This document shows, piece after piece, positions 3,001 through 12,000 of a stretch of 64,000 bases of DNA. Position numbers: made by a program. Source of the DNA: Pocillopora damicornis (lineage: Eukaryota). Position 1 is the stretch's first letter. Each line of letters opens with the position of its first letter. The stretch covers positions 434,001 to 498,000 of the forward strand of contig NW_020844837.1 in the NCBI RefSeq assembly GCF_003704095.1, read 5' to 3'.

Positions 3001-6000
3001 CAACACTTCATTAAATTCAATGAAGATAATGGCTGAAAGTAAACTGTTACTCTCCTTAAATGGGGCACTATTTGTTCCCTAATCCATGGGCTAAATGATT
3101 TCTCAATTGTTTTAAAGAAAGAGATCAAGGACATTGAACAAAAAAACAATAAAACGGCAAATGATATTCACAATTCAGAAGAGAAAAATTCAAGGAACGT
3201 AGCTGGCCCGACAATTCACATAAAACGAACTCCATTGCCAAAGAACCCAGATCCCACACTCCAGAGTAGATGTACAGATTTGACATGCCCCAATTCATGC
3301 CCGTTAAAATTGCCACCGTGCGTGTATTGTTATTGAATGAGAGATCGTTATAAAAGGGTTGGTAAACGGTCTAAATTTCATGAAACTTTTTTCAGGTGGT
3401 ATAGATAACAAACATCTATAAGAAATCGTTTCCTTTCAGTTACTCACTCAAGGTGTGTAAAAACTTGATGTGTTTTTCCAGTTCATTGTCAGTTTTTCTG
3501 TGTTTCGAGTGCATCTGATCAAGCTGTAGTTGCGTTTTTGAATGATGAGGATCTTCCAGTGTGAACAAGTCACGTAACTCTTGGTGACAGAAATACCTGT
3601 AAGATGAAGTCATTTTTAGATTTAAGGTACTTTTTGCCTATTTCAAGACAGTGTAAGCTCTTAAAATAAATGACAAAAGCTCCTTGAATGGAGAAGTTAT
3701 AATGACAAACGGAATTGAGAAAGTCATGTTCAAGCCGGCACTGACAGCTGGGACCCTGAGGGCTCAGTAAGAGCGAAACAAGTGAAAAACCAATTCAAGC
3801 TATAGATTAAAGTTTAGTTCTTGCTCTGCTTTGTCACCCAGCACAGGCAATGTAATGGTTCTGATCTATGACGATGCAAAATAACNNNNNNNNNNNNNNN
3901 NNNNNNNNNNNNNNNNNNNNNNNNNNNNNNNNNNNNNNNNNNNNNNNNNNNNNNNNNNNNNNNNNNNNNNNNNNNNNNNNNNNNNNNNNNNNNNNNNNNN
4001 NNNNNNNNNNNNNNNNNNNNNNNNNNNNNNNNNNNNNNNNNNNNNNNNNNNNNNNNNNNNNNNNNNNNNNNNNNNNNNNNNNNNNNNNNNNNNNNNNNNN
4101 NNNNNNNNNNNNNNNNNNNNNNNNNNNNNNNNNNNNNNNNNNNNNNNNNNNNNNNNNNNNNNNNNNNNNNNNNNNTTCTAAACATATGAAATAATATGAA
4201 ACTAAAAAAAGATAAAGTTTCTAAGGTAGCCTCACTAGCCATAAAAAGATCCGGCTGCACCCAATTCAAGAATGGTTCCTTTACTTTCTTTTATCGTAAT
4301 GTCGATTTTTGTTATGTGAGTCAGGATCGTGGACGAAGTATTTGAGTGTCCACTATAGCGAGAAAAAAAAATCAAATGTCTCACTGCGGGAGGGGCATGA
4401 AATTGTCCACATTAACAATCAAACAAAACATGACGAAACCAGTGCACGAGTCCCTAACGTGACAAACAATCAAACCGAACACGTACAACACAGTGCGCGA
4501 GACACTAACGTGACAAACAATCCAACAGAACACAGAGAAAACGGTGCACGAGACACTAACGTAACAAAGAATCACACAGAACAGATACAAAACAGTCCGT
4601 GAGACACTAATGTAACAAACAGTCGACAGAACAGATAAAAAACAGTGCACAAAAACCGAACGTAACAAACAGTCAACAGAACACATACAAAACAGTACCC
4701 GAGGCACTAACATGACAAACAATCCAACACAACACATTCAAAACGGTGCGCAAAACACTACCCTAAGTAAAAATCTTACAAAACACATTCAAAACAGTGC
4801 CTAAGGCACTAACGTACCAAACAATCAAAGAGAAAACATACAAAAAAACTGTCGACAGAACATATACAAAACAGTGCCCGAGGCACTAACGTGACAAACA
4901 ATCCAACACAACACATTCAAAACATTGCACAAACAACAAACGTACCAAACAATCAAACAGAACACATTCAAAACGGTGCGCGATGCACTAACTTACCAAA
5001 CAGTCATACAGAACACATTCAAAACGGTGTGCAAAACACTCACGTGACAAAAATCTTACAGAACACATTCAAAACAGTGCGCAAGGCACTAACGTACCAA
5101 ACAGTAAAACAGAACACATAAAAAACACTGCGCAAGGCACTAACGTCATAGAGTCAACAAAAAAATACAAAACAGTGCGGGAGACATTAACGTAACAAAC
5201 TCTCAAGAAAACTCATACCAAACAGTACGCAAGACACTAGAGTCACAAAAAGGCAATAGAACACATAAAAAACAGTGCGCCAAACTCGAACGTAACAAAC
5301 AGTCGATAAAACACGTAGAAAACAGTGCCCGAGGCACTAACATGACAAAACAATCCAACAAAACACATTCAAAACAGTGCGTAAAACACTAACGTCACAA
5401 AAATTAAACAAAACGAATACAAAACATTGCGCAAGGCACTAACGTACCCAACAATCAAACAGAACACACTCAGAACACTGCACGAGCCACTAACATACCA
5501 AAAAATCAAACAGAACAAATACAAAACAGTGCGCAAGGAACTGACGTGACATACAATCAAACAGAACACATGCAAAACAGTGTCCGAGGAACTTACATGA
5601 CAAACAATCCAACAGAACACATTGAAAACAGTGCGCAAAACACTAGTGACAAAAAGGCAACAGAACACATAAAAAACAGTGCACGAAACTCGAACGTAAG
5701 AAACACATAAAAAACAGAACACATAAAAAACAGTGCCCAACGCACTAACGTAAAAAAAATTCTTACAGAACACATTCAAAACAGTGCGCGAGAAACTACC
5801 ATACCAAACAATCATAAGAACACATTCAAAACGGTGCGCAAAACACTAACGTAAGTAGAAGCCTTCCAGAACACATTCAAAACAGTGCGCGAGGCACTAA
5901 CGTACCAAACAATCAAAGAAAAGATATACAAAACAGTGCGCAAGCCCCTAACGTAACAAACTGTCAAGAAAACTTATACCAAACAGTGCGCGAGACACTA

Positions 6001-9000: not shown

Positions 9001-12000
9001 GGGGAAAGAAGATTTAGTGTCCGTAATAGCGGGGGTACGAGAGAAAAATTAATTGATTTGTCTCTAAACATACGAAATAATATGTAACTACAGATAAAGT
9101 TTTTAAGGTGGTCTCACGAACCATAAAAAGATCCGACCGCACCCCGGAAGGTAAAGAAACCATTCTTGAATAGGCTATTCAAGAATGGTTTCTTTACCTT
9201 CCTTTATCGTAATGTCGATTTATATTATGTGAGTCAGGATTGTGGACGAAGAATTTGAGTGTCCACTATAGCGAGAAAAAAACAAATCAAATGTCGCACT
9301 GGGGTAGGGGTATGAAATTGTCCATATTAACAATCAAACAAAACACAATGAAACCATAAATAAGTCACTTACGTGACAAACAATCAAAAAGAACACATAC
9401 GAAACAGTGCGCGAGACACTAACGTAACAAACAGTCAACAGAACGCATACAAAACAGTGCGCGAGACACTAACGTAACAAACAGTCAACAGAACACATAC
9501 AAAACAGTGCGCGAGACACTAACTTGACAAACAGTTAACAGAACACATACAAAACAGTGAGCGAGACATTAACGTGACAAATAATCAAACAGAACACATA
9601 CAAAACAATGCGCAAGACACGAACGAAACAAACAATCAAACAGAGCACACAAAACGGTGCGCGAGGCACTAACGTGACAAACAATGAAACAGAACACATA
9701 CAAAACAGTGCGCGAGGTACTAACGCGACAAACAATCAAACAGAACACATACAAAACAGTGTGCGAGACACTGGCGTGACAAAGAATCAAACAGAACACA
9801 AATAAAACAGTGAAAGAGACACAAACGCCACAAAGACTCAAACAGAACACATTCTAAACAATGCGTTAAGACTAAGGCAACAAACAACAAAACAGAACAC
9901 ATACGAAACAGTACGCGAGACTCTAACGTGAAAAACAGTCAAACAGAACACAGAGAAAAGTCACTAATGTAACATACAATCAAACACAGTGAAAACAGTG
10001 CGCTGTATACTAACGTAACAAACAATCAAACAGAACGCAGAAAAAAACAGAGCTCGAAAAGAGCACGAAACAGTATGTCAACTTATAATCGAGTAGAACA
10101 AACACATGACCAGCTGGAATTCCCCACGAAAGATAAAACGATCTCTTTGGTTTTACCTGAAGGGATTCTTGGACAAGCCTGTGGTCTGCTTCATCAGAGC
10201 ATCTTTGAAGATCTGCTTGCGGTAAATCTTCTCTTCAAGTGTTCCACATGTGATTAGCCGGTAAATAACAACAGTCTTTTTCTGTCCAATTCTGTAAACT
10301 CTGTTTACAAAANNNNNNNNNNNNNNNNNNNNNNNNNNNNNNNNNNNNNNNNNNNNNNNNNNNNNNNNNNNNNNNNNNNNNNNNNNNNNNNNNNNNNNNN
10401 NNNNNNNNNNNNAAACCTAACACAACATATTCAAAACAGTGCACAAAAAACTAACCTAATAAAAAGTCGTAGAGAACACTTTCAAGGCAGTGCACGAGGC
10501 ATTAACGTACCAAACAGTTATACAGAACACATTTAAAACGATGTACAGTACACTAACATGACTACAAATCTTACAGAACAATTTCAAAACGTGCGCAAGG
10601 ACCTAACGTACCAAAGAATGAAACAGAACACATACAAAAAAGTGTGCAAAACACTAACCTTACCACAAATCGCACAAATCACATTCAAAACAGTGCGCGA
10701 TGCGCTAAACTACCAAAATATCATGCAGAACACATTCAAAACGGTGCGCAAAGCACTAAGATAACTACAAATATTAAAAAACACGATAAAAACAGTGGGA
10801 AAAGAACTAACGTACTAAACACTTAAACACAACCCATAAAAAAACACTGCGCAAGGAACTAACGTGACAAACCATCAAACAAAACACATTGAAAACAGTG
10901 CATAAAACACTAACGTAAAAAAACATCGTACAGAACCCATTCAAAACAGTGCGCGAGGAACTACCGTACAAAACAACCATACACAACACATTCAAAACGG
11001 TGCGCAAAACACTAATGTAAGTAAATGTCTCCCAGAACATATTCAAAGGAGTGCATAAGGCATTAACGTACCAAAGAATAATACATAACACATACAAAAC
11101 AGTGCGCAAGCAACTAACGTGACATACAATCAAACAGAACACATGCAAAAAAGTGTGTGAGGAGCTAACATGAAAGAAAACCAAGCACAACATATTAAAA
11201 ACAGTGCGCAAAACACTAACCTAACAAAAAAATCGTACAGAACACATTCAAAACAGTGCGCGAGGCACTAACGTACGAAACAATTATACAGAACACATTC
11301 AAAACGGTGCGCAATACACTATCGTGACTAAAAATCTTACAGAAAACATTCAAAACAGAGCGCAAGGAGTTAACGTACCAAACAATCAAACAGAACACAT
11401 ACAAAACAGTGCGCGAGGCACTAAACTACAGCCAAATCGTACAAAACAATACAAAAAAACCAAACAACATATTCAAAACAGTGCGCAAAATACTAACGTC
11501 ACGACAAATCATACAAAACACAATCAAAACTGTGCACGAGGCACTAAACTACAAAAGAATCATACAGAACACATTCAAAACTGTGCGAAAAGCACTAATA
11601 TAACTACAAATCTTAAAAAACACAATAAAAACAGTGCGCAAGAAACAAACGTACCAAACACTCAAACACAACACATAAAAAACACTGCCCAAGAAACTAA
11701 CGTGACAAACCATGAAACAGAACACATTCAAAACCGTACATAAAACAGTAACGTAAAAAAATCATACAGAACCCATTCAAAACAGTGCGCGAGGAACTGC
11801 CGTACAAAATAATCATACAGAACATATTCAAAACGGTGCGCAAAACACTAACGTTAGTAAAACTCTTCCAGAACACATTCAAAAGAGTGCGCAAGGCACT
11901 AACGTACCAAAAAATAACACAAAACACACACAAAGAGTGCGAGAGCAAGTGACGTGACATACAATCAAAACAGAACAAATGCCAAACAGAGTGCAAGAAG

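What the first reader, a model, noticed from the sequence alone, without database searches (positions are those of the whole stretch)
3771..10312. Same intron captured in short-array and expanded-array states
Seen: the unique-to-satellite junction occurs twice (3771-4430 and 8838-9345). In the second, the array is only ~750 bp, made of simple units, and is followed by an intact PICH exon. In the first it runs over 4.3 kb to a gap with more varied units. Inference: the small contig is the ancestral intron, possibly belonging to functional copy 2 and misplaced or misoriented, and the first is the expanded derivative.
[Added by the scan's program, not by the reader: the finding's places include an assembly gap (unread letters, written N; its length is only estimated) at 3886 to 4175, 8737 to 8836. 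Whether the letters on both sides are continuous or in frame is not known: test that first.]
Basis: partly seen in the sequence, partly recalled or inferred. Interest (0 to 1): 0.65.

Follow-up and report, generated by a model that had tools for sequence, protein, structure and literature searches.

The report
Coral PICH intron satellite, two copies
Two roughly 10% diverged copies of one intron of a coral helicase gene (ERCC6L/PICH) each carry the same 51-base satellite, one as a short array and one as a long array, in a badly scaffolded short-read region, which is an ordinary case of repeat turnover between gene copies.

Summary
The unique-to-satellite junction occurs twice, at 3771-4404 and 8837-9319, with 307 of 340 bases identical. 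One copy leads into about 15 units (9320-10080) and the other into 4.3 kb (4405-8736).

The window is almost certainly Pocillopora damicornis, not human. The left copy (L, minus strand) is an unprocessed ERCC6L pseudogene. The right copy (R, plus strand, from 23364) is the 3' end of the working gene. The rest of that gene lies on another scaffold.

The short array sits on a 1476-base contig (C3) with 100-N gaps on both sides. C3 carries a complete 144-nt exon at 10157-10300.

C3 differs from L by 9.7%, and L differs from R by 8.8% (p=0.67). C3 is therefore a paralogous copy of the intron, probably misplaced. It is neither an allele of L nor proven to belong to R.

Short-array units group with L's junction-nearest units. 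They lack the variants that dominate the interior of the long array. This fits interior growth of the long array.

The short array also shows recent turnover. There is no outgroup, and assembly collapse cannot be excluded. The direction of change stays open. Interest is low.

The parts
543..603 (.). 31-bp minisatellite where L-R homology ends. Its R counterpart is 24883-24997.
   Evidence: TRF. The inverted match 543-2094 to 24947-23364 stops here.
697..3596 (-). Copy L, an unprocessed ERCC6L pseudogene fragment. Its exons are about 3596..3449, 3011..2886, 2490..2219, 1569..1477 and 933..697. The last exon is absent.
   Evidence: tblastn with Pocillopora ERCC6L proteins. There is a frame change at about 2419-2434, an in-frame stop at about 2252-2254, and a stop plus frame change inside 933..697. 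Exon 3595..3450 is 47 of 48 identical to P0002.
3597..4404 (-). L intron, unique flank next to the satellite. It includes the 290-N gap at 3886-4175. The part 3771-4404 is junction copy 1.
   Evidence: Acceptor AG at 3598-3597. Alignment to C3.
4405..8736 (+). Long 51-bp satellite array attached to junction copy 1 (contig C2, 88 units), ending at a gap.
8837..9319 (-). Junction copy 2, the unique flank on small contig C3. It holds a perfect 28-nt-arm palindrome at 9146-9202, of which L has one arm.
9320..10080 (+). Short 51-bp array on C3, with about 15 units and a degenerate end.
10081..10156 (-). Unique intron spacer between the array and the exon's donor site. It is found nowhere else in the window.
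10157..10300 (-). Complete ERCC6L exon (helicase motif VI region, VYRIGQ...NPF) with AG and GT boundaries. The stretch 10301-10312 is a stub of the upstream intron.
10413..23263 (+). Further satellite contigs C4-C7, in the same orientation, with gaps at 17515-17672, 18411-18510 and 20053-20306. The interior variants dominate in C4-C6. The end of C7 is again similar to C3.
23364..25293 (+). Copy R, the 3' end of the working ERCC6L gene. Its exons are 23889-23981, 24526-24825 and 25144-25293.
   Evidence: 24526-24825 is 100% identical to P. damicornis records P0123 and P0124. The last 41 residues of P0002 equal the first 41 of P0123.

Best explanation
This is a short-read, Chicago/HiRise-scaffolded stretch of the Pocillopora damicornis ERCC6L (PICH) locus.

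Before part of the gene was duplicated, the intron after the motif-VI exon already held an A-rich 51-bp satellite that starts at a fixed point. The window holds two descendants of that intron, about 10% apart.
- One belongs to L, an inverted, decayed, unprocessed pseudogene fragment. It carries a long array of at least 4.3 kb, and possibly about 19 kb if contigs C4-C7 are really contiguous with it.
- The other lies on a 1.5-kb contig (C3) that the scaffolder dropped between satellite contigs. It carries about 15 units and a complete exon.

C3 most likely comes from another copy of the gene. That copy could be the working gene's lineage (as a second haplotype or redundant piece) or a third copy. 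It probably does not lie where the scaffold puts it.

The length difference arose by ordinary tandem-repeat turnover, meaning unequal exchange or replication slippage of one to several units. Shown: homology of the junctions, the pseudogene state of L, the unit types and their gradient along the arrays. Inferred: that the long array grew mainly in its interior by amplifying variant units, while the short array kept junction-type units but also turned over locally. How much each array changed in length since the split is not resolved.
For: Species and gene:
- The best hits of the C3 exon are ERCC6L of stony corals.
- Two P. damicornis records on a 680,225-bp contig match 24526-24825 at 100%.
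- The assembly method comes from passages of PMC6208414.

Copies L and R:
- L and R form an inverted match, 543-2094 with 24947-23364. Introns differ at 105 of 1188 bases and exons at 25 of 362.
- L has a frame change and stops.
- The working gene's model P0002 is 99% identical to the P. verrucosa protein and lies on a 34,700-bp scaffold. Its end overlaps R by 41 identical residues.

The junction:
- C3 and L differ at 33 of 340 flank bases, which is not different from L-R (p=0.67). This is about 8 times the 1.14% heterozygosity reported for a Pocillopora species (passage of PMC10236652).
- Both copies share the same first degenerate unit.

Unit types:
- 11 of 14 three-unit windows of C3 have their best long-array match at 4405-4846.
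- The first full L unit (4452) is the nearest non-C3 leaf for 8 of 13 C3 units.
- Columns 47-48 read CG in 9 of 13 C3 units. In C4 they read CG in 21 of 135 and CA in 85 of 135.
- Identity to the C3 consensus falls from 0.85 in the first block of ten L units, nearest the junction, to 0.77-0.82 in C4-C6, then rises to 0.84 near the end of C7.
- The youngest segment duplicates are in C4-C6, with best five-unit matches up to 0.92. The best C3-to-C2 matches are 0.83-0.87 for three-unit windows and 0.83-0.84 for five-unit windows.
Against: - I could not read the other scaffold or any other Pocillopora genome, so C3's true home is inferred.
- All 193 hits of a satellite motif are on the plus strand, C3's included. 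C3 is therefore oriented like L, not like R, in the scaffold. With three independently placed pieces this has a chance of about 1 in 8.
- The short array is more uniform than any of 255 equal runs of the long arrays and has a 98% identical pair. It is not a frozen ancestral state.
- Segments of the 4.3-kb array have best matches averaging 0.838, about the same as the best C3-C2 five-unit matches (0.83-0.84). Much of that array may predate the split, which would make C3 a contraction.
- The unit tree is nearly unresolved, with 10 of 324 branches supported, and has no outgroup.
- Short-read assembly can only assemble the divergent parts of arrays. Younger, uniform parts may hide in the six gaps.
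Confidence: 0.6

Rival explanations
1. The scaffold is right. Within one intron of copy L, a module of flank plus array was duplicated. The intron would then read exon, short array, flank', long array, flank, exon, with more satellite in the upstream intron.
For: The scaffolder put C3 here, in the same satellite orientation as all other pieces. The C3 exon is the one that should precede L's exon 3596..3449, and the window holds no other copy of it. The C3 exon and L's neighbouring exon are equally well conserved, 47 of 47 and 47 of 48.
Against: This needs a nested duplication that happens to be as old as the L-R split. It also needs satellite on both sides of the exon. C3's left end is a contig break at a point where L continues as unique sequence. 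Both joins are 100-N gaps of unknown size. No exon upstream of C3's exon lies within the 54 kb that would be upstream.
Confidence: 0.2
2. The short array is an assembly artefact. A longer, more uniform array was collapsed by the short-read assembler, so the two 'states' do not differ as much as they seem. C3 may also be a leftover haplotype contig.
For: The assembly is Illumina shotgun plus Chicago/HiRise with contig N50 25.9 kb (passages of PMC6208414). C3's core units are the most alike in the region, at 0.81 mean with one pair at 98%. Leftover allelic contigs are a known problem in coral assemblies (passages of PMC10236652). An identical 52-residue reading frame is seen on 3 other public contigs.
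Against: No two C3 units are identical, and the longest exact repeat in the array is 43 nt. Reads of ordinary length could therefore thread it. The array has degenerate units at both ends and unique sequence on both sides within one contig.
Confidence: 0.15
3. The flank plus satellite is part of a mobile element that carries tandem repeats, as Helentron-type elements do in oysters. The two junctions would then be two insertions, not one intron inherited twice.
For: Such elements exist (PMC7492417, search listing and abstract only). The C3 flank holds a perfect palindrome.
Against: The two copies sit between consecutive exons of the same gene, in the right order and orientation. They share the same first degenerate unit. 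Their divergence equals that of the surrounding gene duplication. No other copy of the flank or the satellite lies in the remaining 45 kb of the window.
Confidence: 0.05

Closest known systems
Intronic minisatellite or satellite arrays that change length by unequal exchange, with older unit types kept at array edges (general satellite biology, recalled; reviews PMC5615363 and PMC8122249 seen only in the search listing)
   Same: Head-to-tail units of fixed length, a fixed junction with unique DNA, degenerate edge units, variant units amplified in the interior, and different lengths in related copies.
   Different: The interior is not uniform. Mean unit identity is 0.72, and no higher-order period stands out at lags 1-12. 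The array looks old, not recently homogenised.
Unprocessed (duplicated) pseudogenes of ERCC6L/PICH, an SNF2-family helicase
   Same: L keeps introns and exon order, and it carries a frame change and stops.
   Different: L is partial and inverted relative to the working copy. Its homology ends in tandem repeats, at least at the 31-bp minisatellite end.
Allelic or redundant small contigs in coral short-read assemblies (PMC10236652, passages)
   Same: A 1.5-kb contig duplicates a gene piece that is also present on another scaffold.
   Different: It differs from the neighbouring copy L by 9.7%, far above the reported heterozygosity of 1.14%. Relative to L it is a paralogue, not an allele.
Porites 188-nt satellite with a palindromic telomeric sequence (PMC10236652, passage)
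   Same: It is another coral tandem repeat. The array here also holds a short telomere-like run, TAACCC x4.5 at 14679-14705.
   Different: The unit length, sequence and genus differ. That satellite is intergenic, and this one is intronic.

Membership tests
ERCC6L / PICH (SNF2-family helicase) | Sequence similarity of the exons to named ERCC6L proteins across the helicase C-terminal region | tested here: met
   705 of 719 candidates had E<=0.001, and the top named hits are ERCC-6-like of corals and vertebrates. The C3 exon is 47 of 47 identical to P. damicornis XP_027044335.1.
ERCC6L / PICH (SNF2-family helicase) | Pfam SNF2 and Helicase_C domains detected in the window's own pieces | tested here: inconclusive
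   Single exons of 52 residues gave no Pfam hit. The full-length relatives carry PF00176 and PF00271. I searched exon by exon and did not build a joined model.
Satellite DNA | Head-to-tail units of constant length in arrays over 1 kb | tested here: met
   351 units of about 51 nt lie between 4405 and 23263 in six contigs.
Satellite DNA | High copy number at several places in the genome | not testable with these tools
   No coral genome or reads were available. Within the window the repeat is confined to 4405-23263.
Higher-order repeat (HOR) satellite | Units a fixed number of positions apart are much more alike than neighbours | tested here: not met
   Mean identity at lags 1-12 stays at 0.68-0.76 in the long arrays, with only a slight even-lag excess in C4-C6.
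Unprocessed pseudogene | Introns kept, and reading frame broken | tested here: met
   The exons of L are separated by introns collinear with R. L has a frame change and two in-frame stops.
Satellite-carrying mobile element (Helentron-like) | Conserved element ends on both sides of the array, and dispersed copies | not testable with these tools
   Only one side is shared between the two copies. No further copy lies in the window.

The most novel reading that the evidence does not exclude
The scaffold is essentially right. The locus would then be a real inverted partial duplication of PICH around an old satellite of at least 19 kb, into which an exon-bearing module (flank, short array, exon) has been copied. 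The satellite would have served both as breakpoint and as vehicle for duplicating gene pieces. L's exon conservation follows the gene's constraint (1 of 48 residues changed in the helicase exon against 15 of 65 downstream; p=0.002). This would point to a second PICH gene that worked for a long time before decaying.
Probability: 0.12. Interest if true: 0.4.

Novelty: new member of a known kind. Interest (0 to 1): 0.2.

Why it matters
The main value is as a caution about this assembly. The P. damicornis ERCC6L gene is split over two scaffolds. A pseudogene fragment and a stray exon-bearing contig are joined through satellite contigs, so gene counts and 'duplications' here should not be taken at face value.

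Biologically, this is a dated example of tandem-repeat turnover. The flank divergence of about 9-10% gives a yardstick for how far two arrays of common origin can drift in length and unit make-up. It would gain interest only if long reads showed that the nested arrangement is real.

Tried and rejected
1. I first read the C3 frame as [11 protein letters not shown] took N for a change at a residue that is D in 117 of 118 homologues with the motif (all 120 hits scanned, 2 without the motif). Among named records alone, D is in 99 of 99 with the motif (100 named records, 1 without). I withdrew this. Four short contig-derived frames all read F-x-N-R but have unrelated residues upstream. The DNA there is TTTTGTAAACAG|A, the end of an intron.

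2. I tried to argue from exon conservation that C3 belongs to the working copy. I rejected this because L's own neighbouring exon is just as conserved.

3. I looked for position-by-position orthology of units between the two arrays. No diagonal appears beyond the first units.

4. I looked for higher-order repeat structure and found none.

5. The maximum-likelihood unit tree has too few columns, with only 10 of 324 branches supported. I used it only for nearest-neighbour counts.

6. Rfam gave no match in the window.

7. A clock argument from mean unit identity (0.72) against 'expansion' was weakened by two results. Nearest-unit identity is about 0.90, and the first four units next to the junction differ more than the flank, though not significantly (27 of 197 against 33 of 340; p=0.16).

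8. One search failed on a frame slip, which I corrected.

Not checked:
- No collection on hand holds coral DNA, so the 34.7-kb scaffold, other Pocillopora assemblies and reads stayed unchecked.
- Supplements of the two genome papers were not seen.
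Full report
WHAT THE WINDOW IS

The window holds ten runs of N, which split the first 29 kb into contigs:
- C1: 1-3885
- C2: 4176-8736
- C3: 8837-10312
- C4: 10413-17514
- C5: 17673-18410
- C6: 18511-20052
- C7: 20307-23263
- C8: 23364-28717

An A-rich repeat of 51 nt fills 4405-23263. A 12-nt core motif, allowing one mismatch, has 193 hits. All are on the plus strand and all lie inside that span.

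The exon on C3 finds ERCC6L (PICH) proteins, with stony corals first. Two Pocillopora damicornis records (RMX47958.1 and XP_027041385.1) lie on a 680,225-bp contig and match 24526-24825 at 100% over 100 and 85 residues. I take the window for P. damicornis.

That genome was made from Illumina shotgun reads plus Chicago libraries with HiRise. Contig N50 is 25.9 kb and mean intron length is 667 bp (passages of PMC6208414). That 100-N gaps mark HiRise joins, and the odd-sized gaps mark the assembler's own estimates, is my recollection and comes from no call.

GENE COPIES

I searched exon by exon and built no joined spliced model.

Copy L, on the minus strand, has exons at about 3596..3449, 3011..2886, 2490..2219, 1569..1477 and 933..697. 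It has a frame change near 2419-2434, an in-frame stop near 2252-2254, and a stop plus frame change in 933..697. It has no last exon. L is therefore an unprocessed pseudogene fragment.

Copy R, on the plus strand, has exons at 23889-23981, 24526-24825 and 25144-25293. They are 97-100% identical to P. verrucosa ERCC6L.

L and R are an inverted pair. The stretch 543-2094 matches 24947-23364. Introns differ at 105 of 1188 bases and exons at 25 of 362. The homology ends in a 31-bp minisatellite.

No exon for residues 1-607 lies anywhere in the window.

The species' own ERCC6L model is XP_027044335.1, 769 residues, partial, and 99% identical to the P. verrucosa protein. It lies on a different scaffold of 34,700 bp. 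Its last 41 residues equal the first 41 of the R-encoded record. The working gene is thus split over two scaffolds. The join of R to the satellite at 23264-23363 either hides at least the rest of the gene or is wrong.

THE OBSERVATION

Both junction copies are real. The flank is identical at 307 of 340 aligned bases (blastn E 7e-41 for the first 114 nt). Both copies pass into the satellite through the same degenerate first unit.

The 290-N gap in copy 1 has both its sides collinear with one continuous stretch of C3, so the two sides belong together. It is intronic, so reading frame is not an issue. I did not fill it.

C3 then has about 15 units (9320-10080), 76 nt of unique sequence, and an exon. 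I first read the frame as running to the contig end with an odd residue. It is complete, bounded by AG and GT, and its 47 whole codons are identical to the working protein.

On the minus strand C3 reads exon N, array, flank. L reads array, flank, exon N+1, with acceptor at 3598-3597. The codon split across the two exons gives the expected arginine. This is one intron seen twice.

WHERE C3 BELONGS

C3 cannot be put into L's intron unless the flank-plus-array module is duplicated there.
- Its left end is a contig break at a point where L runs on as unique sequence.
- Both its gaps are 100 N.
- Its flank differs from L's at 33 of 340 bases (9.7%). That is no different from L-R introns at 8.8% (p=0.67). 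It is about 8 times the 1.14% heterozygosity reported for a Pocillopora (passage of PMC10236652).

So C3 is a paralogue of L's intron, of the same age as the L-R split. The simplest reading is that it comes from the working gene's lineage, or from a third copy, and was placed nearby by the scaffolder.

I could not test this against the 34.7-kb scaffold. Exon conservation does not help. C3 has 0 of 47 residues changed and L's neighbouring exon has 1 of 48, while L's downstream exons have 15 of 65.

THE ARRAYS

A wraparound alignment to the 51-nt unit cut the arrays into 351 units. Of these, 328 had at least 44 columns filled and were used for the counts; 23 short units were dropped.

Uniformity:
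- Mean pairwise identity is 0.81 within C3 and 0.71-0.73 within each long contig.
- C3 is closest to C7 (0.76) and C2 (0.75).
- None of 255 runs of 13 consecutive long-array units reaches C3's uniformity.
- No higher-order period appears at lags 1-12.

Gradient along the scaffold:
- Identity to the C3 consensus is 0.85 and 0.84 in the first two blocks of ten C2 units.
- It is 0.77-0.82 through C4-C6 and back to 0.83-0.84 near the end of C7.
- Variants T22, T34 and A48 dominate the interior.
- Columns 47-48 read CG in 9 of 13 C3 units. In C4 they read CG in 21 of 135 and CA in 85 of 135. CpG-to-CpA decay is the likelier direction by established knowledge of CpG mutation, so the C3 and edge type is probably the older sequence type.

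Relationship of the short array to the long arrays:
- 11 of 14 three-unit windows of C3 find their best long-array match at 4405-4846.
- In a FastTree of the 328 units, the first full L unit (4452) is the nearest non-C3 leaf for 8 of 13 C3 units.
- 30 of the 39 top-three neighbour places fall in the first 1.2 kb of C2 or in C7. Those regions hold 79 of the 315 other units.
- The short-array units therefore do not nest in the interior types.

- The tree has only 10 of 324 supported branches and no outgroup.
- The unit-by-unit matrix shows no diagonal after the first units.
- C3 holds a 98% identical neighbouring pair, so it has turned over since the split.
- Five-unit segments of C2 have best matches averaging 0.838 (maximum 0.897). 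That is the same as the best C3-to-C2 five-unit matches at 0.83-0.84, so much of the 4.3 kb may be as old as the split.
- C4-C6 have younger duplicates, with means of 0.867-0.894 and a maximum of 0.92. Of 315 long-array five-unit windows, 28 reach 0.90 or more.
- Of 958 blastn matches of at least 300 nt inside the satellite span, none reaches 88%.
- Short reads assemble only the divergent parts of arrays, so younger parts may lie in the gaps.
- Collapse of C3's array cannot be excluded. However, no two of its units are identical, and its longest exact repeat is 43 nt.

VERDICT

'Same intron, two states' is supported. 'Misplaced contig of another copy' is likely but unproven. 'Short is ancestral, long is expanded' fits the unit types but is not shown.

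The mechanism is ordinary repeat turnover between paralogous copies, seen through a poor scaffold. I found no description of this repeat. The one search for Pocillopora satellite DNA returned one Pocillopora paper, which describes a different, Porites satellite.

UNCHECKED

Reads, the other P. damicornis scaffold, other Pocillopora genomes, the closed collections and the papers' supplements were not checked.

Noticed in passing
23364-24560, together with records P0002 and P0123: The working ERCC6L gene of this assembly is split. Its model on a 34.7-kb scaffold ends with the same 41 residues that begin the R-encoded record. The two scaffolds therefore overlap or are redundant, and the join at 23264-23363 is suspect.
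   Followed up: partly
543-603 and 24883-24997: The L-R inverted homology stops inside a 31-bp minisatellite, with 2.0 copies in L and 3.7 in R. On the other side L runs into the 51-bp satellite. Both visible ends of the duplicated segment therefore lie in tandem repeats.
   Followed up: partly
697-3596 (-): L's protein-level divergence from the working gene rises along the gene. It is 1 of 48 residues in the helicase exon, 6 of 34 in the next, and 9 of 31 further on (1 of 48 against 15 of 65, p=0.002). This parallels the gene's own constraint pattern. It hints at a period of selection on L, or at gene conversion near its 5' part.
   Followed up: partly
9146-9202: C3's flank holds a perfect palindrome with 28-nt arms one base apart. 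L has only one arm, so one copy gained or lost a 31-nt inverted duplicate.
   Followed up: partly
14679-14705: A telomere-like run, TAACCC x4.5 with 100% matches, sits inside the satellite contig C4.
   Followed up: no
8410-8463: A 12-nt piece of the unit (AACACTGCGCAA) is repeated 4.5 times without a mismatch. This is a young sub-unit expansion inside the old array.
   Followed up: no
43636-44757 (-), 45707-46843 (+), 53611-54810 (-), 49714-50763 (+): Three long open frames match the rhodopsin-family receptor domain (7tm_1). The first two form a divergent inverted pair at about 63% DNA identity. A fourth frame matches the interferon-inducible GTPase family and is crossed by the gap at 49862-49961.
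   Followed up: partly
34133-38288: Tandem segmental duplication at 70-75% identity, with further partial copies near 39870-41158.
   Followed up: no
P0135-P0138 (public short frames, not in the window): At least four variants of the motif-VI exon with different upstream intron sequence exist on other public contigs. One of them is identical to C3's frame and is seen on 3 contigs. Several copies or species variants of this exon are therefore in circulation.
   Followed up: no
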